From Planctomycetota bacterium (lineage in GTDB: Bacteria > Planctomycetota > SZUA-567), in the NCBI GenBank assembly GCA_031261425.1, contig JAISJR010000006.1, positions 9,701 through 73,700 on the forward strand: a stretch of 64,000 nucleotides of DNA, in the 5' to 3' direction. The translations under genes were made by a program, and so were the position numbers. This document shows, in pieces, positions 2,869 to 58,736 of the stretch. The notes below the pieces were generated by a model. It saw only the letters and a program-made list of their open reading frames with translations. It was not told where the DNA came from and searched no databases. How positions within the stretch are numbered: position 1 is the first letter of the stretch; the number at the start of each line of letters is the position of its first letter.

Positions 2869-4179
2869 TTACAACTTCCTCTCGCCGCCGACAAAGACCG
2901 CCGCCGGTTTGCCGCGCAATTTTTGTCCGTTCCACGGGCAATTTTTCGACTTCGATTTGAACTCGGCGGGGTTGACCGTCCATTCGCGCGTTAAATCCCA
3001 AAGCGTCAAATTCGCTTTCGCGCCGACGGATAAAGTTCCGCGCTCGCAACCGAGAATTTTCGCCGGCGCGGTCGTCATCGCCTCAATTACCCGCGCCAAA
3101 GGAATTTTTCCCGTGGCGACTAAATGCGTGTAAACGACGCCGAACGAGGTCTCCAAACCGAGCAAACCGAACGGCGCCTGCGCCATTTCGACTTCTTTTT
3201 CTTCTTGCAAATGCGGCGCGTGGTCGGAGGCAATCGCGTCAATCGTCCCGTCGGCGAGCGCCGCGACGCAGGCGTCAACGTCCGCCGCCGAGCGCAACGG
3301 CGGATTGACTTTATAGACCGGATTGAAACTCCGTAAATTCGCGTCCGTCAGCGTCAAATGGTGCGGCGTCGCTTCGGCGGTTACGGGCAGACCGGCGTTT
3401 TTCGCGGCGCGTAACATCGCGACGGCGCCGCGCGTGGAAATATGTTGCAAATGCAGCCGCGCGCCGGTGAGTTTTACCAACAATAAATCGCGGGCGACGA
3501 TGATTTCTTCGGCTTCCGCCGGAATACCGGGAAGTCCGAGTTCCGTCGCGACTTCGCCCTCGTTCATCACGCCGCCCGCCGCGAGCGACGGTTCCTCGCA
3601 GTGTTCGAGCAACGGTTTGCCGAGCATTTTGGCGTAGAGCAACGCTTGCCGCAACAGCGCCGCCGGACCGACCGCGCGTCCGTCGTCGCTGAACGCGACC
3701 GCGCCGCCCCGCGCCATATTCGCCATTTCCGCCAACCGCTCGCTCGCCCGACCGGCGGTAATCGCGCCGACCGCCAAGACCTCCGCCAGTTGCGCGGCGT
3801 GGGCTTCGCGGTAAATAAAATTGATGTCGGCTTCGGAATCAATCGCCGGTTCGGTGTTCGGCATACAGGCGACCGTGGTGAAACCGCCGGCAATCGCCGC
3901 CGCCGCGCCGGAGGCAATCGTTTCTTCGCTCTCGGCGCCGGGCTCGCGAAAGTGGACGTGCATATCAATCAGTCCGGGCGTAATCGTTTGACCGGCGGCG
4001 GAAAATTTTTCGACCGGCGCGGCGGCGGCGAGCGCGGCTTGCATTTGCGCCGCGCGGGCGGGCGTTCGGTCGTCGAGGGCTAAAATTTTGCCGTCGCCGA
4101 GAAGAATATCGGCGGGAACGTCGAACAACTTTTGCGCCGGGTCGATGACGCGCCCGCCGGTGATGAGCAGATGAGACAT
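2869..4179 (-). CDS. pyrC: Dihydroorotase
   Basis: 'DMHVHFREPG', 'SDHAPH' metal-binding motifs and full-length similarity to the class I dihydroorotase family; start at MSHLLITGG. Confidence 0.9.
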   Translation of the reverse strand: MSHLLITGGRVIDPAQKLFDVPADILLGDGKILALDDRTPARAAQMQAALAAAAPVEKFSAAGQTITPGLIDMHVHFREPGAESEETIASGAAAAIAGGFTTVACMPNTEPAIDSEADINFIYREAHAAQLAEVLAVGAITAGRASERLAEMANMARGGAVAFSDDGRAVGPAALLRQALLYAKMLGKPLLEHCEEPSLAAGGVMNEGEVATELGLPGIPAEAEEIIVARDLLLVKLTGARLHLQHISTRGAVAMLRAAKNAGLPVTAEATPHHLTLTDANLRSFNPVYKVNPPLRSAADVDACVAALADGTIDAIASDHAPHLQEEKEVEMAQAPFGLLGLETSFGVVYTHLVATGKIPLARVIEAMTTAPAKILGCERGTLSVGAKANLTLWDLTREWTVNPAEFKSKSKNCPWNGQKLRGKPAAVFVGGERKL

Positions 4180-20602: not shown

Positions 20603-20629
20603 AGTTCAGAGTTCAGAGTTGAAAAAGAT

Positions 20630-20832
20630 GCTCTATTCAATTGCCACGCCTTTTAAGGCGTGGTAGGCGGTCAAAAAAAAGAAAGGGCTTTAGCCCAAAA
20701 TAAAAAATGCGGTCTCATTCCACCGGCTTTAACCGAACAATTGTTCGGGGCTAAAGCCCATTTATTTTTTCTGACCGCCCACGAAAAAACCGCCCCGTTA
20801 AAGGGCGGTTTTATCAATTCGTTGCAACTCGC
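20630..20832. repeat. R3 element, degenerate copy (left 21-bp TIR intact, right end decayed)
   Basis: Begins 'gctctattcaattgccacgcc'; internal 'gggctttagccc...ggggctaaagccc' hairpins match complete copies at 34186 and 44479. Confidence 0.65.
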
Positions 20833-27307: not shown

Positions 27308-27387
27308 AGGTAGAGTTTTTTTTTAGAGTTTAGAGTTGAGATCTGAGAGTTGAGAGTTAAGAGTGATGACGTTTGGCGTTCGACTAA

Positions 27388-28284: not shown

Positions 28285-28290
28285 TTTTGT

Positions 28291-28446
28291 CAGAGTTGAG
28301 AGTTTAGAGTTCAGAGTTGAGAGTTGAAAGTTTAGAGTTGAAAGTTGAAAAAAAGGATTAGGGGCAAGGGTTAGGGGTTAGAGGCGAAATTGCCCCCCTG
28401 TTCTCTCTCTTAACTCTCAACTCTAAACTCTCAACTCTGAACTCTC
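28291..28446. repeat. R1 heptamer-array palindrome with G-rich variable core
   Basis: Left '(agagttg/agagttt/agagttc)n', right '(caactct/aaactct)n', core 'aggattaggggcaagggttaggggttagagg...cccccc'. Confidence 0.8.
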
Positions 28447-29871: not shown

Positions 29872-29985
29872 CAGAGTTAAGCGTTGAGAGTTTAGAGTTG
29901 AGCAGAGGTCGCGCTTCGCGCATTATTAAAATAACTCCACTGCTCAACTCTCAACTCTCAACTCTCAACTCTAAACTCTACTCTT
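29872..29985. repeat. R1 heptamer-array palindrome (canonical core)
   Basis: 'agagtttagagttgagcagaggtcgcgcttcgcgcattattaaaataactccactgctcaactctcaactct...'. Confidence 0.85.
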
Positions 29986-30753
29986 TTAGAACGGCTTAAA
30001 TTTATTGACGACTTTGGCGAGCCATCCTTGGCGGATGCTGTCCGAGACCTCGCCTTTGCCGTTGAACGCGATGCGCAAATTCATCACGCGCTCGCCGGGG
30101 ACTTCGGAATTTTCATTCAGGTCGTTCGGGTCCACCACGCCGGAAAACAGCACGTCTTGCGTTTCGTCGTTGATGCGAATTTGTTTGCGCGCCTCCACGA
30201 CCAAATGACCGTTGGGCAAAACCTCGACGACGTTGCCGCTTAATTTGGTGGTGAACGTGCCGGTGCGGTTGGTTTTGCCTTCGCCTTTGTGCTCCATTTC
30301 GGCTTCAAAGTTGACCTGCGCGTAGTTGTCGCCGGTTTGCGCGGCGTCGATACTGCCGTCGGCGCTGGTCATCGAATACGGTTTTAACACGCGGTCGCCG
30401 TTGGCGTTTCGCCCGAGTTTGAACCAATTCTTCAAATTGATGAGATTGCTGTTTTGGGATTTCAATTCGTTTTTCGCCTCGATTTTCGTGTCGGTTTTTT
30501 CATCGACGAGAAACGTTACGCGGTCGTGGACTTTATTGGCGCGCGGCTTGACTAATTCGTTGATGTCGGCGCGGTAAGCGTGAAAAAATTTCGCCGCCGT
30601 GCGCTCTTCCGCCAGCGTCGTTTCAATCGCTTCCTCGTCGAGCGTTTTGCGCGCCATCTCGGCTTTGGAAATCGGCTCATACTCCCGATAGACATCGGCG
30701 GCGGCGGCGGTCGCGGTGAAAATCAGCGACAGCGCAATGATGGTTTTCGACAT
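29986..30753 (-). CDS. flgH: Flagellar L-ring lipoprotein FlgH
   Basis: Signal peptide; 'LSGNVVEVLPNGHLVVEARKQIRINDETQ' FlgH core. Confidence 0.85.
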   Translation of the reverse strand: MSKTIIALSLIFTATAAAADVYREYEPISKAEMARKTLDEEAIETTLAEERTAAKFFHAYRADINELVKPRANKVHDRVTFLVDEKTDTKIEAKNELKSQNSNLINLKNWFKLGRNANGDRVLKPYSMTSADGSIDAAQTGDNYAQVNFEAEMEHKGEGKTNRTGTFTTKLSGNVVEVLPNGHLVVEARKQIRINDETQDVLFSGVVDPNDLNENSEVPGERVMNLRIAFNGKGEVSDSIRQGWLAKVVNKFKPF

Positions 30754-30772
30754 TTTTAATCCCCCCGTTTTT

Positions 30773-31888: not shown

Positions 31889-31992
31889 AGAGTTTGGAGT
31901 TAAGAGTTTAGAGTTTAGCAGAGGTGGCGCTTCGCGCATTTTTAAGATAACTCCACTGCTCAACTCTAAACTCTGAACTCTAAACTCTATCT
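31889..31992. repeat. R1 heptamer-array palindrome (canonical core)
   Basis: '...gagtttagcagaggtggcgcttcgcgcatttttaagataactccactgctcaactctaaactct...'. Confidence 0.85.
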
Positions 31993-32812: not shown

Positions 32813-32917
32813 CAGAGTTGAGAGTTGAAAGTTTAGAGTTGAGCAAAGGTCGCGCTTCGCGCATTTTTAAGATAACTCCACTGCTAAACTCTCAACTCTA
32901 AACTCTCAACTCTCTCT
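32813..32917. repeat. R1 heptamer-array palindrome (canonical core)
   Basis: Same arms and core. Confidence 0.85.
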
Positions 32918-33747: not shown

Positions 33748-33775
33748 TTTTTACTCGTTTCGTTGTCGGCAAGCA

Positions 33776-33898
33776 ATTGAAAATTAACAATTAACAATTG
33801 TGGAGTTTGATTTTTAATTCGCTTCGCGAAATTTTGACCGCGAACGCCTCAATTGTGAATTGTTAATTGTCAATTGTTAATTGTTAATTGTTAATTCT
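33776..33898. repeat. R2 element
   Basis: 'caattgaaaattaacaattaacaattg' - 'tggagtttgatttttaattcgcttcgcgaaattttgaccgcgaacgcctc' - 'aattgtgaattgttaattgtcaattgttaattg...'. Confidence 0.8.
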
Positions 33899-34185
33899 CT
33901 CTCAATCGCCGTGCCATTTTCGCCGTTTGGCGCATCTCATCGGTTAAAGTTGAAAAATCCGCCGCGTGGTCTATCGGCAAAAACCGGCAAAAAGAATAGA
34001 AAAATTTCCGAACAAAGTTTGCGCGGCGGGAATAAATATCTGCAAGTTTTTTTTGCGGCGGCGATGATTTTATTTACCGGCAGGCAAAAATTGCCTGTTG
34101 CGCGTTTTTTCATTTGGCTTGTTTCTTATCTCGCGGAGGCACGGAGAACACGGATAAATTCAATTATTGGTGGATGCTCTATTCA

Positions 34186-34358
34186 ATTGCCACGCGCTTT
34201 AGCGCGTGGTTAGCGCTCCCGCTAAAATGGGCTTTAGCCCAAACCATAATTTGGCTAAAGCCGATGGAATTTAGACCACGTTTTTTATTTTTGGGCTAAA
34301 GCCCATTTCTTTTTTGACCGTCAACCACGCCTTAAAAGGCGTGGCAATTGAATAGAGC
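34186..34358. repeat. R3 element, complete copy with perfect 21-bp TIRs
   Basis: 'gctctattcaattgccacgcg...ggcgtggcaattgaatagagc' with internal 'gggctttagccc'/'gggctaaagccc' hairpins. Confidence 0.85.
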
Positions 34359-34691
34359 AACCGCGTTTTGCCACCGCCGTTTTGGAAGCGGAGAAAAACT
34401 TCGGCGCCGGGCTTTTTACCCCGCGCCGGAATAATTTTAACTCGTAATTTTCAGTGTTTTAAGCGTCTATTTTTCACCTCGCCAATCGTCCGCGCCGCCA
34501 ACTCACGCCGAAAACTTTGAGAAAAATTAAATTTCTTGCTTGCGAAAACAGTTGAATGACCTAAATTAGCAATGTCGGCGGTGGAAGCGACGAAAAAGGT
34601 GAAAATGTGATAAAAATGCGTCCCGCGCGGTAAAAACGGTTGACGCGCCAAACTTTGGTCGGATTTCTTTGTTTTTTTTATTTTTTTTTAC

Positions 34692-34704
34692 GGGGGGGGG
34701 GGGG
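34692..34704 (+). promoter_or_regulatory. Homopolymeric G13 tract, preceded by T8-A-T9, 5 nt upstream of the GT4 start codon
   Basis: 'gttttttttatttttttttacgggggggggggggagttATG'. Confidence 0.7.
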
Positions 34705-34708
34705 AGTT

Positions 34709-35893
34709 ATGAGAATCGCGATGTTTTCGTGGGAGTCACTGCACTCAATTTTTATTGGCGGTTTGGGCGTGCACGTTACGGAACTTGCCGCCGGCTTGGA
34801 ACGCCGCGGGCATGAAGTGCATTTGATTACCCGCCGCAAAGCCAACCAAAATCCGTATGACTTGGTTGACGGCGTCCATTATCATCGTATCGACCACGAG
34901 GTTACCGGCGACGATTTTGTGGTGTCGATGGACAAAATGTGCCAATCGATGGCGGCGAAATTTCGCGATATTACCACGTTGGTCGGGCATTTCGATTTGC
35001 TCCACGCGCACGACTGGCTGACCGGCAACGCGATGAAATACTCGATGCAAACGTTCGGCACCAAAGGCATCCTGTCGATGCACTCCACCGAATACGGGCG
35101 CGACGGCAACGTGTTTTATGACGGGTTTGCCCGCGAAGTCCGCGACTGCGAAGCCGAAGCGTGCTTCCACGCCGACCAAATCATCTGCGTCAGTTCGTTC
35201 CTCGCCGAAGAAGTCGAACGCATTTACGCCGTGCCGCACAACAAAATTCACGTGGTGCCGAACGGCGTCAACTATCACGCTTTCGACGGTTTCATCGACC
35301 CCGCCGCCGTCAAAACCGAATACGGCATCGCCCCGATGGCGCCGACGGTTTTCGCCGCCGGTCGGATGAGTTTGCAAAAAGGTATGGATATGTTGGTCGA
35401 AGCCGTGCCGATGGTCTTGGCGAGTTATCCCGAAACGAAATTCGTCATTTCCGGTAGCGGTCCCGAAAAAGACAACGTCGTGCGCATTGCCAATCAAATC
35501 GGCGTCAGCGATTCCGTCATTTTCCTCGACGCGCTTCCGCGTCACAAATACATCGACTTGGTGCGCGCGGTGGACCTCGTCGCGGTGCCGAGCCGCAACG
35601 AACCGTTCGGTATCGTCATTCTGGAAGCGTGGGCGGCGGGCAAACCGGTGGTTACGACGACCGTCGGCGGTCCGCGCGAATTTGTGTGGCACAATGTCAA
35701 CGGTTTCCACGTGGACGCGAATCCGGGCGGCTTGGCGCACGGCATCGGCTCGCTCTTGGCGGACCACGACCACTGCCGCGCTCTCGGTCTGAACGGGCGC
35801 AAAGCGTGCGAAGATATGTTCAACTGGGACAACGTCGCGCAATACACCGAAGGCGTCTATCAATACGTGTTGGACAACAGTTTCGCCTACTAA
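34709..35893 (+). CDS. Glycosyltransferase family 4 (glycogen-synthase-like fold)
   Basis: 'MRIAMFSWESLHSIFIGGLGVHVTELAAGLERRGHEVHLIT' GT4 N-domain; C-terminal 'EPFGIVILEAWAAGKPVV'. Confidence 0.8.
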   Translation: MRIAMFSWESLHSIFIGGLGVHVTELAAGLERRGHEVHLITRRKANQNPYDLVDGVHYHRIDHEVTGDDFVVSMDKMCQSMAAKFRDITTLVGHFDLLHAHDWLTGNAMKYSMQTFGTKGILSMHSTEYGRDGNVFYDGFAREVRDCEAEACFHADQIICVSSFLAEEVERIYAVPHNKIHVVPNGVNYHAFDGFIDPAAVKTEYGIAPMAPTVFAAGRMSLQKGMDMLVEAVPMVLASYPETKFVISGSGPEKDNVVRIANQIGVSDSVIFLDALPRHKYIDLVRAVDLVAVPSRNEPFGIVILEAWAAGKPVVTTTVGGPREFVWHNVNGFHVDANPGGLAHGIGSLLADHDHCRALGLNGRKACEDMFNWDNVAQYTEGVYQYVLDNSFAY

Positions 35894-35957
35894 TCGACTC
35901 GATTTGCGGTCTAAAAATAAAAAATGCCACGCCGTTTTGTTCGGCGTGGCATTTTTT

Positions 35958-37506
<1,549 letters not shown>

Positions 37507-37515
37507 ACATTAAAA

Positions 37516-37827
37516 TTAACCGGCATTTCGCTCAAATAAAATTTTGCCGACGCGCCGGATATGGTCGCGCAACGCGGGGTTGTCAAGGTGCGCCCAGAGA
37601 TTCGCGTCCAATTTGTAGGGGAGCAACAAGTCGTCGATTTCGTCTTCGATTTTGCCTTTAACGGTCAAGTTCAAACCGTCGCCGAAAAGCGTCAAGTCGA
37701 TGTCGGAGTATTTCTGAAAATTGCCTTTGGCGCGCGAGCCGTATAAAACGACTTTTTCGACTTCGCCGTGCGCGGCAAAGACGGCTTGCATTTGACAAAT
37801 TTCCGTGTCGGTCAAACCGTAGCGCAT
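37516..37827 (-). CDS. Nucleotidyltransferase-domain protein (MNT, HI0073 family)
   Basis: 'LYGSRAKGNFQKYSDIDL' GSx(n)DxD NTase motif; overlaps the upstream HepT-like gene. Confidence 0.75.
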   Translation of the reverse strand: MRYGLTDTEICQMQAVFAAHGEVEKVVLYGSRAKGNFQKYSDIDLTLFGDGLNLTVKGKIEDEIDDLLLPYKLDANLWAHLDNPALRDHIRRVGKILFERNAG

Positions 37828-38246
37828 TTCCGCTCCATCGTTTTCTGAAATTTCGCCAACCGCGGCGCGTATTGAGTAATGATTTTTTGTCCGACGGCTT
37901 CCGCGACGGCGTTATTGTAAGTGTGCGAGGTCTCGTTGCGACTGCGAATCATCGCCATCCAGACCTCGCCGTCGTCAATCAATTTCAGCGCGAGCGCTTC
38001 CCGCGTGGCATCGCGCGAGCCGCCGACCGCGTTATTGCCCTGATACGCGGCGTAGTCCTTCATCACATTCCACGCCAATTCGTGCGTGTATTCAAACCGT
38101 TGGACTAATCCTTCGCGGGCAATTTCCATCAGCCGCGCGTCGTCGGCAAACAGATGGTTGCCGACCAAGTCAACCGCGTCTTGCAATTTCGCCAACGCTT
38201 TGCGGTAATTGTCAAAACGTTGCGTCCAGCGGATATCGTCTTCCAT
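37812..38246 (-). CDS. Nucleotidyltransferase substrate-binding protein (HepT-like, HI0074 family)
   Basis: 'RSRNETSHTY' Rx4HxY motif; 'GLVQRFEYTHELAWNVMKDY' family signature. Confidence 0.75.
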   Translation of the reverse strand: MEDDIRWTQRFDNYRKALAKLQDAVDLVGNHLFADDARLMEIAREGLVQRFEYTHELAWNVMKDYAAYQGNNAVGGSRDATREALALKLIDDGEVWMAMIRSRNETSHTYNNAVAEAVGQKIITQYAPRLAKFQKTMERKCATV

Positions 38247-44478: not shown

Positions 44479-44617
44479 GCTCTATTCAATTGCCACGCCC
44501 TTTAGGGCGTGGTCGGCGCTGGAAAATGACCGGCTTTAGCCGAATGGTTTATTTGGGCTAAAGCCCTTTTCTTTTTTGACCGTCCACGCCCTAAAGGGCG
44601 TGGCAATTGAATAGAGC
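44479..44617. repeat. R3 element, complete copy
   Basis: Perfect TIRs 'gctctattcaattgccacgcc'/'ggcgtggcaattgaatagagc'. Confidence 0.85.
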
Positions 44618-44650
44618 GACCGCGTAAATTTGGGTTGACCGCGTAACTCG

Positions 44651-50065: not shown

Positions 50066-50222
50066 AAAATTTAGAGTTGAGAGTTTAGAGTTCAGAGTTT
50101 AGAGTTTAGAGTTGAAAGTTGAGAGGTAAAAGGTAAAAGGTAAAAGGGAAAAAATAAGAGGCAAAAGAAATTGTCATCTCAACTCTCAACTCTTAACTCT
50201 AAACTCTCAACTCTCAAAAAAA
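50066..50222. repeat. R1 heptamer-array palindrome with A-rich variable core
   Basis: Left arms x6, core '(aggtaaa)3 gggaaaaaataagaggcaaaagaaattgtcat', right arms x6. Confidence 0.85.
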
Positions 50223-51533
50223 ATGTCATTGCCGGTGCAGATACTAACTTTCGGTTGTCAGATGAACAAACTCGATTCCGAGTTGATGACCGAGGCGTTG
50301 TGCGCGGCGGGCTATGAAATCGTCGCCGACGAAGCCCTCGCCGCCGCGATTATTTTCAACACTTGCGCCGTGCGCGAACACGCCGAGGAGCGCGTGCTTC
50401 AGCGCGTCCGCCAACTCAAAAATAAACGCGCCGTCGTCGTCATCGCCGGTTGCGCGGCGGAGCGGCTCGGCAAAACCATTTTCGCCAAACTGCCGCAAGT
50501 CCGCGTCGTGTGCGGCACCCGCTATTTTCCCGACATCGCCGACTTGCTCGCCCGCGCTTTCGCCGGCGAGCGTCTCGCCGCGATTGGCGACGGTCAACTC
50601 GCCGCCGCGGGCGCGTTCGCCGCGCATTCGCGCCCGCGTCATCACGGCATCAAGGGCTTCGTGTCGGTGATGCGCGGTTGCGATAATTTTTGCGCGTATT
50701 GCATCGTGCCCTACGTGCGCGGACGGGAAGAGAGCCGTCCGGCGGCGGCAATCGTCCGCGAAACCGCCGCGCTCGCCGAGCGCGGCGCGATTGAAATCAC
50801 GCTCCTCGGACAAAACATCGACGCTTACGGCAAAGGACAAAATTCGTCGTTCGCGGCATTGTTGGCGCAACTTGACGACGAAATTTCGCCCCGCGTCAAA
50901 CGCTTCCGTTTTGTAACGAGTCATCCGCGCGACCTCACCGAAAAGTTGGCGCGAACGATTGCCGACCGTCCGCGCTTGGCGGCGCATTTGCATATGCCGG
51001 CGCAGTCCGGCTCCAATCAAATTTTGGCGAAAATGAAACGCGGCTACACGCGCGAAATTTACGACGAGCGGTTGCGGATGATTGCCGACGTTTTGCCGGA
51101 GGCGTCGGTGGTCAGCGATTTTATCGTCGGCTTCCCCGGCGAAACGGCAGACGATTTTGCCGCGACGGTAGCCCTCGTTGAACAAGCGCGTTTTCAGACC
51201 GCCTACGTTTTCAAATACTCGCCGCGCCCCGGCACGTGGTCGGCGGAAAATCTGCCGGACGACGTTCCGCTCGCGGTGAAAAAAGAGCGCAATTTGCGTC
51301 TGTTAAAAGTTCAGGAGGTCGTCAGCCGCGAGCGGCACGCGGCGTTAATCGGGCGCGAAGTCGAGGTCTTGGTCGAGGGCTTATCGACCACCGACGCGAC
51401 GAAAATGAGCGGGCGGACGAGCAATAATCTGAACGTCGTTTTTCCGCTGACGGCGGGCGTCGCCGCGGGCGATTGGGCAAAAGTTAAGGTTACCGGCAGT
51501 TCGCCGCTAACGCTCAAAGGAGAGAGAGTTTAG
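50223..51533 (+). CDS. miaB: tRNA-2-methylthio-N6-dimethylallyladenosine synthase (radical SAM MTTase)
   Basis: UPF0004 N-domain Cys triad and 'CDNFCAYC' radical-SAM motif, TRAM C-terminus. Confidence 0.9.
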   Translation: MSLPVQILTFGCQMNKLDSELMTEALCAAGYEIVADEALAAAIIFNTCAVREHAEERVLQRVRQLKNKRAVVVIAGCAAERLGKTIFAKLPQVRVVCGTRYFPDIADLLARAFAGERLAAIGDGQLAAAGAFAAHSRPRHHGIKGFVSVMRGCDNFCAYCIVPYVRGREESRPAAAIVRETAALAERGAIEITLLGQNIDAYGKGQNSSFAALLAQLDDEISPRVKRFRFVTSHPRDLTEKLARTIADRPRLAAHLHMPAQSGSNQILAKMKRGYTREIYDERLRMIADVLPEASVVSDFIVGFPGETADDFAATVALVEQARFQTAYVFKYSPRPGTWSAENLPDDVPLAVKKERNLRLLKVQEVVSRERHAALIGREVEVLVEGLSTTDATKMSGRTSNNLNVVFPLTAGVAAGDWAKVKVTGSSPLTLKGERV

Positions 51534-51628
51534 AGTTTAGAGTTGAGAGTTGAGAGAGTGGAGTTTTATTTTTAAGATGCGCGAAGCGCAACCTCTGCTC
51601 AACTCTAAACTCTCAACTCTAAACTCTG
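51525..51628. repeat. R1 heptamer-array palindrome (canonical core), overlaps the miaB 3' end
   Basis: 'gagagtttagagtttagagttgagagttgagagagtggagttttatttttaagatgcgcgaagcgcaacctctgctcaactctaaactct...'. Confidence 0.85.
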
Positions 51629-52726: not shown

Positions 52727-53767
52727 ATGTCCCTCGCCGCCGCGCTCACCGCGCCTGCCGACCGGAAAATGCTCGGCATTTTGCAAAAAATCACGCCGCT
52801 CGGCTGGGCGGCGAAAGAAATCACCCGCCGCCGTTATGAAAAATTTGCGCGTTTGGCGCTCATCGGCGCCGGCGGCGCGGTTACCCGCGCCACCCTGCCG
52901 CGCTTGTGGCAATTGGCGAACGGCGTCGCGGAAAAACTCGAAGTCGTTTGTCCCGAAATCTATATCGCCGACGCGCCGACCGTCGCCGCCAAAATCATCG
53001 GCGAAGAACAGCCGCTTTTAATGTTGCAGCGCGGGGCGCTCGCGCTGGACGAAAAAATGATGACCGTGTTATTGGCGCACGCGCTGACCGCGCTCGTCTG
53101 CGGGCATCCGCCGTATTTGGCGACGCGCGATTTGACGGCGGCGGCGGCGGATAATTTGGGCTTGTTCAAAGGCGCGACGGCATTGCCGCGGATGTTGTTG
53201 GAAGAATGGTTTTACGCCGCCGAAATGTCCGGCGACCGCGGCGCGTTATGGGTAACCGGCGACGTGGATTTAGTGCTGGAATTTTTGGGACCGCCGTCGG
53301 CGTGGGGCAAAATTCCGGCGAGCGAGTTAATCGCGCAGGGCGAGCGTTATTTGACCGCGTATCGCGAAACGCCGGCGTGTCCGCTGTTTCGCACGTGGTC
53401 GAATTTGTATTTCAATTTGCCGCGCTACGGTTTGCGGGCGGCGGAAATTAAAAAATGGGCGGACAGCGCCGAATACGCCCAATTGCGCGGCGACGAAAAA
53501 ACGGCGGCGGAGCCGGTTTATTGGGGCGCGTTTGCCGGCGATTTATCGGAAATGGAACTCGCGGCGGGCGGAGAAAATGATTTATGGTCGGAGACGCCGG
53601 ACGACCTGCGCTCGGCTGGCGACTCGCGCTCGGCTACCGACTTGCGGTCGGCTACCGACTATTTTGACGCACTCAAAAATGAAGCGCAACACCTCGCCGC
53701 CGCCGCCGCCGACTTCGCCAAAACCGGCGCCGGGGCGGTGAGTATGTGGCTGAGGAAAGCCAATTAA
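52727..53767 (+). CDS. Hypothetical protein
   Basis: 346-aa ORF with coding-like composition; no recognisable motif. Confidence 0.5.
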   Translation: MSLAAALTAPADRKMLGILQKITPLGWAAKEITRRRYEKFARLALIGAGGAVTRATLPRLWQLANGVAEKLEVVCPEIYIADAPTVAAKIIGEEQPLLMLQRGALALDEKMMTVLLAHALTALVCGHPPYLATRDLTAAAADNLGLFKGATALPRMLLEEWFYAAEMSGDRGALWVTGDVDLVLEFLGPPSAWGKIPASELIAQGERYLTAYRETPACPLFRTWSNLYFNLPRYGLRAAEIKKWADSAEYAQLRGDEKTAAEPVYWGAFAGDLSEMELAAGGENDLWSETPDDLRSAGDSRSATDLRSATDYFDALKNEAQHLAAAAADFAKTGAGAVSMWLRKAN

Positions 53768-53886
53768 CAATTGACAATTAACAATTAACAATTAAGAAAT
53801 TTGATTATCAGATTTACCGTGCGCCATTTTGACAATCTACTCCTCAATTGTTAATTGTTAATTGTCAATTGTTAATTGTAATTGCC
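53763..53886. repeat. R2-type AT-rich palindrome
   Basis: 'caattaacaattgacaattaacaattaacaattaag...ctcaattgttaattgttaattgtcaattgttaattgtaattg'. Confidence 0.8.
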
Positions 53887-57399: not shown

Positions 57400-57885
57400 A
57401 TGAAAACTTGGTTTTTACTTGCGTTGGCAGTGGTGTTGACCGGTTGCGGCGGGTCGATTTTGAGCCAATTCGCCGGCGAGTGGGGGCAATTCTCGGACGA
57501 CCGCAACGACGTTACGGCGATTCGCGCCGGTATGCGCACGACCGACATTTTGCCGAAAATCGGCAAGCCGGAAAAAATCGAAGCCGGCGAAAACATCTAT
57601 GCCGGCTGGCAGGAATGGATTTATCCGACCGGCAGTTTGTTGGTTTATCGCGGGGAAGTGAAGCAGGTCTTCGCCGAGACGCGCGACGCCGACACAATGG
57701 CGAAATTGGCGAAAGCCAACGCCAAGGGCTTTGACCTCGGCTTTGAGAGCGACAAAAAAGAAAACAAAAAGACCAAAGAAGAAGAACTCGCCGAACAAGA
57801 AAAAATGATGTGGGGCGTCAATGAAAAAACGAAAAACAATAAATATCGCGAACTCGACCGCGACGGATTTAGCGCGGTGAAATAA
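57400..57885 (+). CDS. Lipoprotein (possibly BamE/SmpA-OmlA-like)
   Basis: 'MKTWFLLALAVVLTGCGG' lipobox; the earlier ATG at 57208 lies inside R5 copy C. Confidence 0.55.
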   Translation: MKTWFLLALAVVLTGCGGSILSQFAGEWGQFSDDRNDVTAIRAGMRTTDILPKIGKPEKIEAGENIYAGWQEWIYPTGSLLVYRGEVKQVFAETRDADTMAKLAKANAKGFDLGFESDKKENKKTKEEELAEQEKMMWGVNEKTKNNKYRELDRDGFSAVK

Positions 57886-57886
57886 G

Positions 57887-57987
57887 AGTTAAAAGTTGAG
57901 AGTTGAGAGTTGAGCGGAGGTTGCGCTTCGCGCATTTTTAAGATAACTCCACCGCTAAACTCTAATCTCTTAACTCTAAACTCTGCT
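57887..57987. repeat. R1 heptamer-array palindrome (canonical core)
   Basis: 'agagttaaaagttgagagttgagagttgagcggaggttgcgcttcgcgcatttttaagataactccaccgctaaactctaatctcttaactctaaactct'. Confidence 0.85.
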
Positions 57988-57998
57988 CACGAATCACT

Positions 57999-58610
57999 AT
58001 GCAAAAATTCGACATCAAAAAAATCCTGCTGACGGTGCTTGCGGGCATCTCTTTGCCGCAGGTGCGGCGGCTGATTTTTTTGATCTTCGGCATCGCGATT
58101 GCGGCGATTATCACGACGATGGCGGTGGTGCTGATTGCGGAGTGGGAGGACGAAGACACGACGGCGCTCGGCAAAGAACGGTTGCAGACGCTTTACGCGG
58201 CGGTGAAGAAATTTCAGTCCGAAGAATACTTCGCGCGTCCGCCGAAAAATTTAACCGAATTGTTGGATTTGCCGCCACGCGCGGCGCGCGAGCCGGAAGT
58301 CGTCCCGCTACTCGCGGACGCCGCCGCCTTGCGCCTGCCGCGCGCGGCTTCCGCCGCCGACGAGTCCGATTTTTGGCTCGTGCCGTATTACGATTTTTCG
58401 CTCCCCGCCAACGCGATTATTTTGTTAGACCGTCCGGGAAATTACGCGCGCGGCGGACACCTCGTGTTCAACGACGGCACGCTGATTTTTTTGAGCGCGT
58501 CCGCCGCCGATTACCGGCGTTTCGCGCAGGCGGTAATGGAGCGCCGCGACCGCGATTTTGTGCGGGCGCAATCCGCCGGTTGCTCTATCGTCGGTTTCAA
58601 GAGCAATTAA
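57999..58610 (+). CDS. Hypothetical membrane-anchored protein
   Basis: N-terminal TM helix, coding-like composition. Confidence 0.5.
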   Translation: MQKFDIKKILLTVLAGISLPQVRRLIFLIFGIAIAAIITTMAVVLIAEWEDEDTTALGKERLQTLYAAVKKFQSEEYFARPPKNLTELLDLPPRAAREPEVVPLLADAAALRLPRAASAADESDFWLVPYYDFSLPANAIILLDRPGNYARGGHLVFNDGTLIFLSASAADYRRFAQAVMERRDRDFVRAQSAGCSIVGFKSN

Positions 58611-58736
58611 CAATTTACAATTTACAATTAACAATGGTGGAGTTTTTATTGGCAAATCCGCAAGCGCTCGCGAAGCGAATCTTTGACCATAAAACTCCGC
58701 AATTGTTAATTGTTAATTGTGAATTGTGAATTGTTC
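58604..58736. repeat. R2 element
   Basis: 'caattaacaatttacaatttacaattaacaatggtggagtttttattggcaaatccgcaagcgctcgcgaagcgaatctttgaccataaaactccgcaattgttaattgttaattgtgaattgtgaattg'. Confidence 0.8.

What the first reader, a model, noticed from the sequence alone, without database searches (positions are those of the whole stretch)
34672..34711. T8-A-T9-A-C-G13 homopolymer block in the RBS position of a GT4 glycosyltransferase: candidate phase-variable switch
A 13-G tract ends 5 nt before the ATG of the GT4 gene and is preceded by two long T tracts. Tracts this long are slippage-prone. Length changes would alter RBS spacing or strength, or promoter spacing, for a surface-glycan enzyme. That is the classic contingency-locus arrangement.
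Basis: partly seen in the sequence, partly recalled or inferred. Interest (0 to 1): 0.55.

Follow-up and report, generated by a model that had tools for sequence, protein, structure and literature searches.

The report
Expanded poly-G ribosome-binding site, glycosyltransferase leader
A run of 13 G's sits where related bacteria carry an ordinary ribosome-binding site in front of a highly conserved, probably glycogen-type sugar transferase gene; the run is real, recent and mutation-prone, but nothing shows that it acts as an on/off switch.

Summary
T8 (34672-34679), A, T9 (34681-34689), AC and G13 (34692-34704) are followed by AGTT and the ATG at 34709 of a 394-aa GT4 gene. G13 is the only G run longer than 5 in 64 kb (expected about 1e-4 to 1e-5). 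It occupies the Shine-Dalgarno (SD) position: the sister lineage (about 95-99% identical in coding DNA, syntenic) has GGGAGGAATGGT-ATG there, a more distant relative has AGGGGGAAGTT-ATG, and about 45 orthologues all have GGAG/AGGA-type SDs with no long G run. The U-rich tract upstream is conserved as a feature in all three close lineages. The block is therefore a U-rich leader plus an SD whose G run expanded recently in this one lineage.

The switch interpretation is not supported, but it is not refuted. The gene is not an evident surface-glycan enzyme: it is at least 70% identical across phyla, its closest solved structure is GlgM, and its orthologues sit next to glucan-water-dikinase-like genes and occur in glycogen-accumulating bacteria. 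Modelled G12/G13/G14 give the same SD pairing and near-identical accessibility. No other long G/C tract occurs in the window. Population-level length data could not be reached: the only second copy is an identical re-assembly.

The parts
34540..34567 (+). Candidate sigma-70-type promoter: TTGCGA, 16-nt spacer, TAAATT (inferred)
   Evidence: The block is conserved in three lineages in alignment A2: window TTGCGA-N16-TAAATT, L002/L003 TTGCGA-N16-TACATT, L168 TTGCCA-N16-TACAAA. It matches 8 of 12 consensus positions, below the 9 of 12 threshold of the scan. If it is used, the T/G block lies about 100-130 nt into the 5' UTR. No experiment supports it.
34664..34689 (+). U-rich leader tract: TTTCTTTG, T8 (34672-34679), A, T9 (34681-34689)
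   Evidence: Sequence. A T-rich tract immediately 5' of the SD occurs in the sister lineage (TTTCTTTTTTTTCTAATTCTTTTTT) and in L168 (T8-G-T9). Richness in T is conserved, but the exact run lengths are not.
34692..34704 (+). G13 homopolymer in the Shine-Dalgarno position
   Evidence: Searches show it is unique in the window. It aligns with GGGAGG in L002/L003 and with GGGGG in L168. Predicted duplex with a generic anti-SD tail is -14.9 kcal/mol, against -10.7 for the sister SD.
34709..35893 (+). GT4 glycosyltransferase gene (394 aa), GlgM/GlgA_Coryne-like, probably alpha-glucan metabolism
   Evidence: It differs from the sister lineage at 22 nucleotides and 5 amino acids.
35919..35958 (.). Bidirectional intrinsic-terminator-like hairpin (A6, 16-bp stem, T7) after the GT4 gene

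Best explanation
The block is the translation-initiation region of the 5' leader of a conserved, cytoplasmic, alpha-glucan-type GT4 gene. It consists of a U-rich tract followed by a Shine-Dalgarno element. That architecture is ancestral to this group of Planctomycetota. In this lineage alone, the G-rich SD (GGGGG or GGGAGG in relatives) has grown to 13 G's, most likely by replication slippage. The run still works as an SD. Five to seven consecutive G's pair with the CCUCC(UU) tail of 16S rRNA through G-C and G-U pairs. Because the run is long, the ribosome can choose among several registers 4-10 nt from the AUG. The tract is certainly mutation-prone, so some length heterogeneity in the population is expected. 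However, one-G changes are predicted to leave SD strength, usable spacing and local structure almost unchanged. It is therefore best read as a recently expanded, tolerated simple-sequence repeat in a fast-evolving intergenic region, at most a weak expression 'tuning' site, rather than an evolved on/off contingency switch. What is shown: presence, uniqueness, SD homology, lineage specificity, and the conservation and context of the gene. What is inferred: SD function of the G run, slippage as its origin, and the small effect of +/-1 G.
For: 1. The position is homologous to canonical SDs. The sister genomes (L002/L003/L006, syntenic) carry TTTTTTAT-GGGAGGAATGGT-ATG. L168 (85% DNA identity) carries T8-G-T9-CTGACA-GGGGG-AAGTT-ATG. 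About 45 orthologues all have GGAG/AGGA/GGGAG 5-10 nt before the ATG, and none has a G run longer than 5.
2. The organism uses SDs. Most genes in the window have AGGAG/GGAGG upstream. A G-only SD also occurs at flgH, as G6 (C6 at 30761-30766 on the + strand), where the sister has GAGGAA.
3. The predicted SD:anti-SD duplex is -14.9 kcal/mol for any G run of 12 or more. The energy to open the SD-to-+13 region is 13.8, 14.2 and 14.5 kcal/mol for G12, G13 and G14.
4. Intergenic DNA turns over fast here. It is 60-71% identical to the sister against 93-99% in the coding bins. Another repeat has also expanded: a near-perfect run of 13.7 CAACTCT-type units, against about 6 imperfect copies in the sister.
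5. The gene looks like a core gene. It is at least 70% identical across phyla, differs from the sister at only 5 of 394 residues, is most similar to GlgM and neighbours GWD-like genes in its orthologues.
6. There is no other G/C tract of 7 or more in 64 kb.
Against: No expression or read-level data exist, so a functional effect of tract length cannot be excluded. The thermodynamic model assumes a generic anti-SD tail and a guessed 5' end at 34570, and it ignores G-quadruplexes and ribosome kinetics. A very long, strong SD can itself alter initiation. A G13 that persists rather than collapsing might indicate selection. In other bacteria, homopolymer changes in a 5' UTR do change expression, for example Mycobacterium tuberculosis espR (PMC11898584) and Moraxella uspA1 (from my own knowledge). 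The assigned function of the GT4 rests on similarity and on gene neighbourhood in orthologues. In the window itself the neighbours are flagellar genes and a GT2.
Confidence: 0.55

Rival explanations
1. The block is a genuine simple-sequence contingency or 'rheostat' locus. Slippage in G13, and perhaps in the T tracts, produces heritable and reversible variants with different GT4 expression, which gives the population bet-hedging in glucan synthesis.
For: G13 is well above the length at which G/C tracts become hypermutable (established knowledge for Neisseria, Campylobacter and Haemophilus). It lies 4 nt from the start codon. It is unique in the window and far beyond chance. The tract has clearly changed length in evolution: G5 or GGGAGG in relatives, G13 here. 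Homopolymers in 5' UTRs that modulate translation are documented (espR).
Against: There are no length variants in the only two assemblies, which are probably built from the same reads. Modelled G12-G14 are equivalent. The gene is a conserved, core-like cytoplasmic GT4 rather than a variable surface function. No other candidate tract occurs in 64 kb. The organism is known only as an uncultured Planctomycetota MAG.
Confidence: 0.2
2. The G run acts through RNA or DNA structure. It could form a two-tier G-quadruplex, or a G-U wobble hairpin with the upstream U tracts, that masks the SD and start codon and sets a low or conditional (for example K+- or temperature-dependent) translation level. Thresholds would lie at G11 for two tiers and G15 for three tiers.
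For: ViennaRNA with G-quadruplex terms predicts a two-layer quadruplex for G11-G14 and a three-layer one from G15. Without those terms, the U tracts pair with the G run in the minimum-free-energy fold of 34660-34740, at -16.2 kcal/mol.
Against: The wobble hairpin is no better than shuffled sequence: z = -1.16 for the 81-nt segment and z = +0.62 for the 161-nt segment. The quadruplex energies are coarse parameters, and two-tier RNA quadruplexes with G loops are marginal (from my own knowledge). Neither structure is conserved, since relatives have only G3-G5.
Confidence: 0.08
3. The tract, or its exact length, is a sequencing or assembly artefact, such as homopolymer miscalling or poly-G from two-colour chemistry. 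The real sequence would then be a shorter G-rich SD.
For: The source is a MAG. Long G homopolymers are error-prone on all platforms (also noted in PMC4488443). The only replicate, L001, is identical over 1647 bp and probably comes from the same reads.
Against: Two different assemblers give the same G13, embedded between unique flanks. Those flanks are syntenic with sister genomes on both sides. Read-end poly-G artefacts do not sit inside contigs with correct continuation. The relative L168 already has G5 at this site, so a G-run SD is genuine in this clade.
Confidence: 0.1

Closest known systems
Homopolymer tracts in 5' untranslated regions that modulate expression: Mycobacterium tuberculosis espR poly-G (PMC11898584) and Moraxella catarrhalis uspA1 poly-G (own knowledge)
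   Same: A G homopolymer lies in the transcribed leader upstream of the start codon. Single-base indels could change translation or mRNA level without touching the protein.
   Different: In those cases length variants are observed in isolates and shown to change expression, and their tracts are not the SD itself. Here no variant has been observed, the tract replaces the SD, and modelling predicts little effect of +/-1 G.
Promoter-spacer poly-G or poly-C phase variation: Neisseria porA and opc, Bordetella fim, Treponema pallidum tpr genes (own knowledge; TprL paper PMC7864442 listed)
   Same: A long G/C homopolymer lies immediately upstream of a gene.
   Different: Those tracts lie between or next to the -35 and -10 elements and act on transcription of surface proteins in host-restricted pathogens. 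Here the tract abuts the start codon, the conserved promoter-like element is about 125-170 nt upstream, and the gene is a conserved cytoplasmic-type GT4.
Intragenic poly-G phase variation of glycosyltransferases: Neisseria lgtA/C/D and pgtA, Campylobacter LOS and capsule genes (PMC2192423, PMC2193922 listed)
   Same: A glycosyltransferase gene is associated with a poly-G tract.
   Different: Those tracts are inside the reading frame and switch the enzyme on and off by frameshift, and the enzymes decorate surface glycans. Here the tract is non-coding and the enzyme resembles GlgM/glycogen-synthase-type GT4s.
Canonical Shine-Dalgarno element preceded by a U-rich tract, as in ribosomal protein S1-binding translational enhancers (own knowledge)
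   Same: The position 4-12 nt from the AUG, complementarity to CCUCC, and a conserved U-rich tract directly 5' are all shared.
   Different: The SD is a pure G13 homopolymer rather than GGAGG. Pairing needs G-U wobbles and is degenerate in register.

Membership tests
SSR-mediated phase-variable (contingency) locus | A hypermutable simple-sequence repeat (G/C homopolymer of about 8 or more) within or just upstream of a gene | tested here: met
   G13 at 34692-34704, 4 nt before the ATG at 34709.
SSR-mediated phase-variable (contingency) locus | Tract-length polymorphism within a population or among close strains (+/-1 repeat steps) | not testable with these tools
   Only two assemblies carry the lineage. 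Both have G13 and are identical over 1647 bp, so they are probably built from the same reads. The 90% protein cluster has only 2 members. The metagenome scan found no near-identical locus.
SSR-mediated phase-variable (contingency) locus | A length change switches or strongly modulates expression | tested here: inconclusive
   Model only. SD:anti-SD pairing is -14.9 kcal/mol for G12-G18, and the opening energy is 13.8, 14.2 and 14.5 kcal/mol for G12, G13 and G14. Quadruplex thresholds fall at G11 and G15. There is no experiment.
SSR-mediated phase-variable (contingency) locus | The gene is part of a set of such loci (a phasome) and typically encodes a surface or host-interaction function (typical, not strictly defining) | tested here: not met
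   No other G/C run of 7 or more occurs in 64 kb. The gene is a core-like GT4 conserved across phyla, most similar to GlgM and linked to GWD-like genes in its orthologues.
Shine-Dalgarno ribosome-binding site | A G/purine-rich element complementary to the 16S 3' tail, about 4-12 nt upstream of the start codon | tested here: met
   Duplex calculation with a generic anti-SD, positional homology with GGGAGG and GGGGG in relatives, and general use of SDs in the window's genes.
GT4 glycosyltransferase (CAZy GT4; Pfam Glyco_transf_4 + Glycos_transf_1) | Both GT-B half-domains score above the Pfam gathering cut-offs | tested here: met
   PF00534 at 130 bits (cut-off 26.4) and PF13439 at 96.9 bits (cut-off 28.5).
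GlgM / GlgA_Coryne-type alpha-glucan GT4 (TIGR02149) | Score above the NCBIfam cut-off for the subfamily | tested here: not met
   157.3 bits against a cut-off of 302.4. It is the top NCBIfam hit over the full length, and GlgM (6tvp) is the best solved relative at E = 3.5e-33. The protein is therefore related, but membership is not established.
RNA G-quadruplex | Four G runs of 3 or more separated by loops (canonical three-tier) | tested here: not met
   G13 can supply only a two-tier arrangement with G loops. A three-tier quadruplex needs 15 or more G's.

The most novel reading that the evidence does not exclude
In a free-living planctomycete, a poly-G tract that has replaced the Shine-Dalgarno sequence of a storage-glucan glycosyltransferase acts as a heritable, reversible expression dial. 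Slippage would move the tract across structural thresholds: a two-tier RNA G-quadruplex at G11-G14 and a three-tier one at G15 or more. This would give sub-populations with different carbon-storage investment. It would extend contingency-locus logic from the surface antigens of pathogens to the core metabolism of environmental bacteria.
Probability: 0.08. Interest if true: 0.6.

Novelty: new member of a known kind. Interest (0 to 1): 0.3.

Why it matters
If the tract were shown to vary and to tune expression, it would be an example of simple-sequence 'tuning' of a core carbon-storage enzyme in an environmental, non-pathogenic bacterium. It would also be a case of an SD replaced entirely by a homopolymer. 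As the evidence stands, the locus mainly shows how fast intergenic leaders evolve in this clade, and that a pure G run can stand in for GGAGG. It is also a caution against reading every long homopolymer next to a glycosyltransferase as a contingency locus.

Tried and rejected
1. Strain and population variation.
- The exact-protein look-up found only the source contig and one identical Logan contig.
- The 90% protein cluster has 2 members.
- No paper mentions SRR14710919.

2. Known RNA families. Rfam at gathering level found only a tRNA-Leu elsewhere in the window. At E <= 1 the intergenic region gave only hairpin-like chance hits to miRNA precursors, caused by palindromic repeats.

3. Intrinsic terminator or attenuator ending in the T tracts. 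No G+C-rich hairpin precedes them, so this was rejected.

4. TTGACG (34640-34645) as the -35 of a promoter spanning the T tracts. No acceptable -10 lies at 16-18 nt, and the motif is absent from L168, so this is judged unlikely.

5. Coding-frame phase variation through the upstream in-frame TTG at 34640. The N-terminus MRIAMFSW is universal and the extension is not conserved, so this was rejected.

6. A general excess of homopolymers, as a hypermutator signature, in this lineage compared with the sister. Counts of runs of 7 or more in the shared 7.5 kb are similar, 8 against 9, so this is not supported.

7. Chimeric assembly join at the tract. Synteny on both sides rejects it.

8. A search of PMC5320596 for repeats located in ribosome-binding sites found nothing.

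Full report
**What is in the sequence.** Reading the window gives ...GGATTTCTTTG-T8-A-T9-AC-G13-AGTT-ATG. The coordinates are T8 34672-34679, T9 34681-34689, G13 34692-34704 and ATG 34709. The ORF 34709-35893 encodes a 394-aa protein with both halves of a GT4/GT-B glycosyltransferase above the Pfam cut-offs. The mechanical ORF list also offers an in-frame TTG at 34640. However, every homologue starts with MRIAMFSWE-like residues at the position of ATG 34709, so the block is non-coding.

**Is it more than chance?** G runs in the 64-kb window have lengths 1-5 and then 13, and C runs reach 6 at most. The expected number of G/C runs of 13 or more is 0.012 from base composition alone, and 1e-4 to 4e-6 under order 2-4 Markov models. 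In 974 kb of related loci from many bacteria, I found only one other G/C run of 10 or more, a G18 in L017. The T8 and T9 runs are less unusual, since the window has eleven T runs of 8-9.

**Is it real?** The window protein is MDR0866982.1 from a Planctomycetota MAG, on a 73.7-kb contig. A Logan assembly of SRR14710919 contains the same T8-A-T9-AC-G13. That contig is identical to window 34339-35985 over all 1647 bases. It is thus a second assembler's view of what are probably the same reads, not an independent population. Both of its ends fall in repeat elements, not at the tract. Sister genomes are syntenic on both sides of the tract, which excludes a chimeric join. The exact length, 13, cannot be verified without reads.

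**What the block corresponds to in relatives.** Three comparisons bear on this.
- *Sister lineage.* Two genomes (Planctomycetales bacterium MS499-59, GCA_025997475.1, and GCA_026001705.1) and two Logan contigs carry a 99%-identical protein. Coding DNA is 93-99% identical in 200-nt bins. Their sequence at this site is TTTCTTTTTTTTCTAATTCTTTTTTAT-GGGAGGAATGGT-ATG, which is a T-rich tract followed by a textbook Shine-Dalgarno (SD) sequence.
- *A more distant relative.* L168 (JGI 3300042599, 85% DNA identity) has T8-G-T9-CTGACA-GGGGG-AAGTT-ATG.
- *Wider orthologues.* About 45 orthologues from Planctomycetota, Competibacteraceae, Fibrobacterota, Polyangiaceae, Rhodospirillales and others all have GGAG, AGGA or GGGAG 5-10 nt before the ATG. 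None has a G run longer than 5.

Hence G13 sits exactly in the SD slot. A U-rich tract directly upstream is a conserved feature of the three closest lineages, although its exact run lengths are not conserved. The long G run is specific to the window's lineage. The window and the outgroup L168 share 'G-run + A(A)GTT + ATG'. This suggests an ancestral G5-type SD that expanded by about 8 G's here and was substituted to GGGAGGAATGG in the sister. That polarity is an inference.

**Does this organism use SDs, and can a G run serve as one?** Most genes in the window are preceded by AGGAG or GGAGG at the usual distance. The flgH gene has a G6 SD (C6 at 30761-30766 on the + strand) where the sister has GAGGAA, so G-only SDs are already tolerated here. 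A duplex calculation with a generic 16S tail gives -14.9 kcal/mol for the G13 region, -10.7 for the sister's SD and -12.2 for an AAGGAGG control. The pairing uses G-C and G-U pairs with CCUCCUU.

**Would slippage matter?** I rebuilt the leader with G4 to G18, assuming a 5' end at 34570.
- SD:anti-SD pairing saturates at -14.9 kcal/mol from G12 upward.
- The energy to open the SD-to-+13 region is 13.8, 14.2 and 14.5 kcal/mol for G12, G13 and G14.
- Because the run is longer than the anti-SD can cover, the ribosome can slide to a favourable spacing whatever the exact length.

One-step slippage is therefore predicted to be nearly neutral for initiation. That is the opposite of what an on/off switch needs.

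With ViennaRNA's coarse G-quadruplex terms, a two-layer quadruplex becomes possible at G11 and a three-layer one at G15. This is the only length threshold I could find, and it is two steps away from G13. Without quadruplex terms the U tracts can pair with the G run by wobble. That fold is no better than shuffled sequence, with z = -1.16 for the 81-nt segment and +0.62 for the 161-nt segment.

**Promoter.** The only promoter-like block conserved in all three lineages is TTGC(G/C)A-N16-TA(A/C)A(T/A)(T/A) at 34540-34567 (coordinates). It matches 8 of 12 consensus positions, just under the scan's threshold. If it is used, the T/G block lies about 100-130 nt into the transcript, so 'promoter spacing' does not apply. 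TTGACG at 34640 has no usable -10 and is not conserved in L168. These assignments are inferences.

**What the gene is.** The evidence points elsewhere.
- The protein is at least 70% identical across several phyla. These include the classical glycogen-accumulating organisms Candidatus Competibacter, Contendobacter and Defluviicoccus, and a Phycisphaerales MAG named 'GAO1'.
- Its top NCBIfam hit is glgA_Coryne, over the full length but below the cut-off (157 against 302 bits).
- Its best solved relative is alpha-maltose-1-phosphate synthase GlgM (6tvp, E = 3.5e-33, full length), followed by BshA, MshA and archaeal glycogen synthase.
- In the 82% and 85% orthologues, the gene is immediately followed by two genes of about 1170 aa with glucan-water-dikinase-type domains (GWD1_pHisD, PPDK_N).
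- Against the sister lineage it shows 22 nucleotide and 5 amino-acid differences.

I therefore read it as a conserved cytoplasmic alpha-glucan-type GT4. Membership in the GlgM/GlgA_Coryne subfamily is not established, and its substrate is unknown. In the window its neighbours are divergent flagellar rod and ring genes (flgF/G-like, flgA, flgH) and a convergent GT2. A cell-envelope role cannot be fully excluded.

**Context of rapid intergenic change.** Coding bins are 93-99% identical to the sister, but the 200 nt upstream of the GT4 gene are 71% identical and the 200 nt downstream are 60%. Three kinds of change are visible.
- The window has an extra stretch of about 390 nt (34097-34490) that the sister lacks. 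It contains a palindromic element of about 190 nt with two more copies in the window.
- Nearly every intergenic region carries inverted arrays of heptamer tandem repeats.
- The array after the GT4 gene is a near-perfect run of 13.7 CAACTCT-type units (98% matches) here, against about 6 imperfect copies in the sister.

G13 is thus one of several recent repeat changes in fast-evolving spacers. Counts of homopolymers of 7 or more over the shared 7.5 kb are similar in the two lineages, 8 against 9, so there is no sign of a general hypermutator pattern.

**Verdict on the interpretation.** The observation and the 'RBS position' reading are confirmed. 'Candidate phase-variable switch' remains untested, because I could not reach reads or sibling strains. 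It is weakened by four points: the nature of the gene, the predicted neutrality of +/-1 G, the absence of other such tracts in 64 kb, and the organism, an uncultured Planctomycetota MAG. It is not refuted. A G13 is intrinsically unstable, and 5'-UTR homopolymers do modulate translation elsewhere, for example Mycobacterium tuberculosis espR (PMC11898584).

My estimates are as follows.

| Reading | Probability |
|---|---|
| Tolerated, recently expanded SD | about 0.55 |
| Functional length-dependent tuning or switching | about 0.2 |
| Structure-based (quadruplex or wobble hairpin) regulation | about 0.08 |
| Artefact of presence or length | about 0.1 |

**Novelty and interest.** An SD made entirely of a 13-G homopolymer is unusual. 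Even so, the class, a simple-sequence repeat in a leader, is well known, and no function has been shown here. I rate it a new member of a known kind, with modest interest (0.3).

Noticed in passing
window, nearly all intergenic regions, e.g. 27325-27364, 28290-28446, 29873-29979, 31889-31989, 32814-32914, 33774-33896, 35956-36107, 50070-50217, 51524-51627, 53761-53884, 57885-57984, 58604-58735: Gene boundaries carry inverted pairs of heptamer tandem arrays: (AGAGTTG)n facing (CAACTCT)n, (CAATTAA)n facing (AATTGTT)n, and (TTAACACGAA)n facing (TTCGTGTAA)n. These would fold into long repeat-built hairpins. They look like a genome-wide family of intergenic, terminator-like or REP-like elements built from 7-nt units.
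   Followed up: partly
window 36013-36107: A near-perfect tandem array of 13.7 CAACTCT-type units (TRF consensus ACTCTCA, 98% matches) abuts the stop codon of the convergent GT2 gene. The sister genomes L002/L003 have only about 6 imperfect copies. This is a second recently expanded, slippage-prone repeat at the same locus.
   Followed up: partly
window 34097-34490 (palindromic core 34172-34362); copies at 20627-20777 and 44479-44625: About 390 nt upstream of the GT4 leader are absent from the sister genomes. They contain a palindromic repeat element of about 190 nt (47-nt arms, 83% complementary) that has two further copies in the window. The element looks MITE-like or REP-like. Weak Rfam 'miRNA precursor' hits there are hairpin artefacts.
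   Followed up: partly
window 30761-30766 (- strand, upstream of flgH ATG at 30753): flgH has a G6 Shine-Dalgarno (CGGGGGGATTAAAA-ATG) where the sister genome has GAGGAA. This is a second case in this lineage of an SD converted to a pure G run.
   Followed up: partly
L166 8354-15185; L170 4342-9220; L171 3657-8535: In the 82-85% orthologous loci, the GT4 gene is followed by two genes of about 1170 aa with glucan-water-dikinase-type domains (Ig_N_CWD1, GWD1_pHisD, PPDK_N; one also has AP_endonuc_2). The GT4 family is also present in the glycogen-accumulating organisms Competibacter, Contendobacter and Defluviicoccus. This may be an undescribed bacterial glucan synthesis and phosphorylation module. 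The window lacks this linkage.
   Followed up: partly
L017 9003-9020 (Candidatus Competibacteraceae MAG JAXMFU010000005.1): A G18 homopolymer lies about 3.8 kb downstream of that genome's GT4 orthologue. It is the only other G/C run of 10 or more in 974 kb of fetched loci. It was not examined further and could be real or an assembly artefact.
   Followed up: no
window 37516-38246 (- strand): A pair of small genes overlaps by a few codons. One is a nucleotidyltransferase (Polbeta/NTP_transf_2, 103 aa) and the other a nucleotidyltransferase substrate-binding protein (144 aa). The arrangement resembles an MNT/HEPN-type toxin-antitoxin pair and is conserved in the sister genome.
   Followed up: no
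L002/L003 about 2985-3006 (sister genomes, immediately upstream of the GT4 ATG): The sister leader reads ATGGGAGGAATGGTATGA. This is a 5-codon upstream mini-ORF whose stop (TGA) overlaps the GT4 start codon (ATGA). It is absent from the window, where G13 replaces it.
   Followed up: no
L168 626-1582: In the JGI contig the GT4 orthologue was called as only 318 aa, although an ATG with the conserved MRIAMFSWE N-terminus lies at 614. It may carry a premature stop or frameshift near its 3' end, or contain a sequencing error.
   Followed up: no
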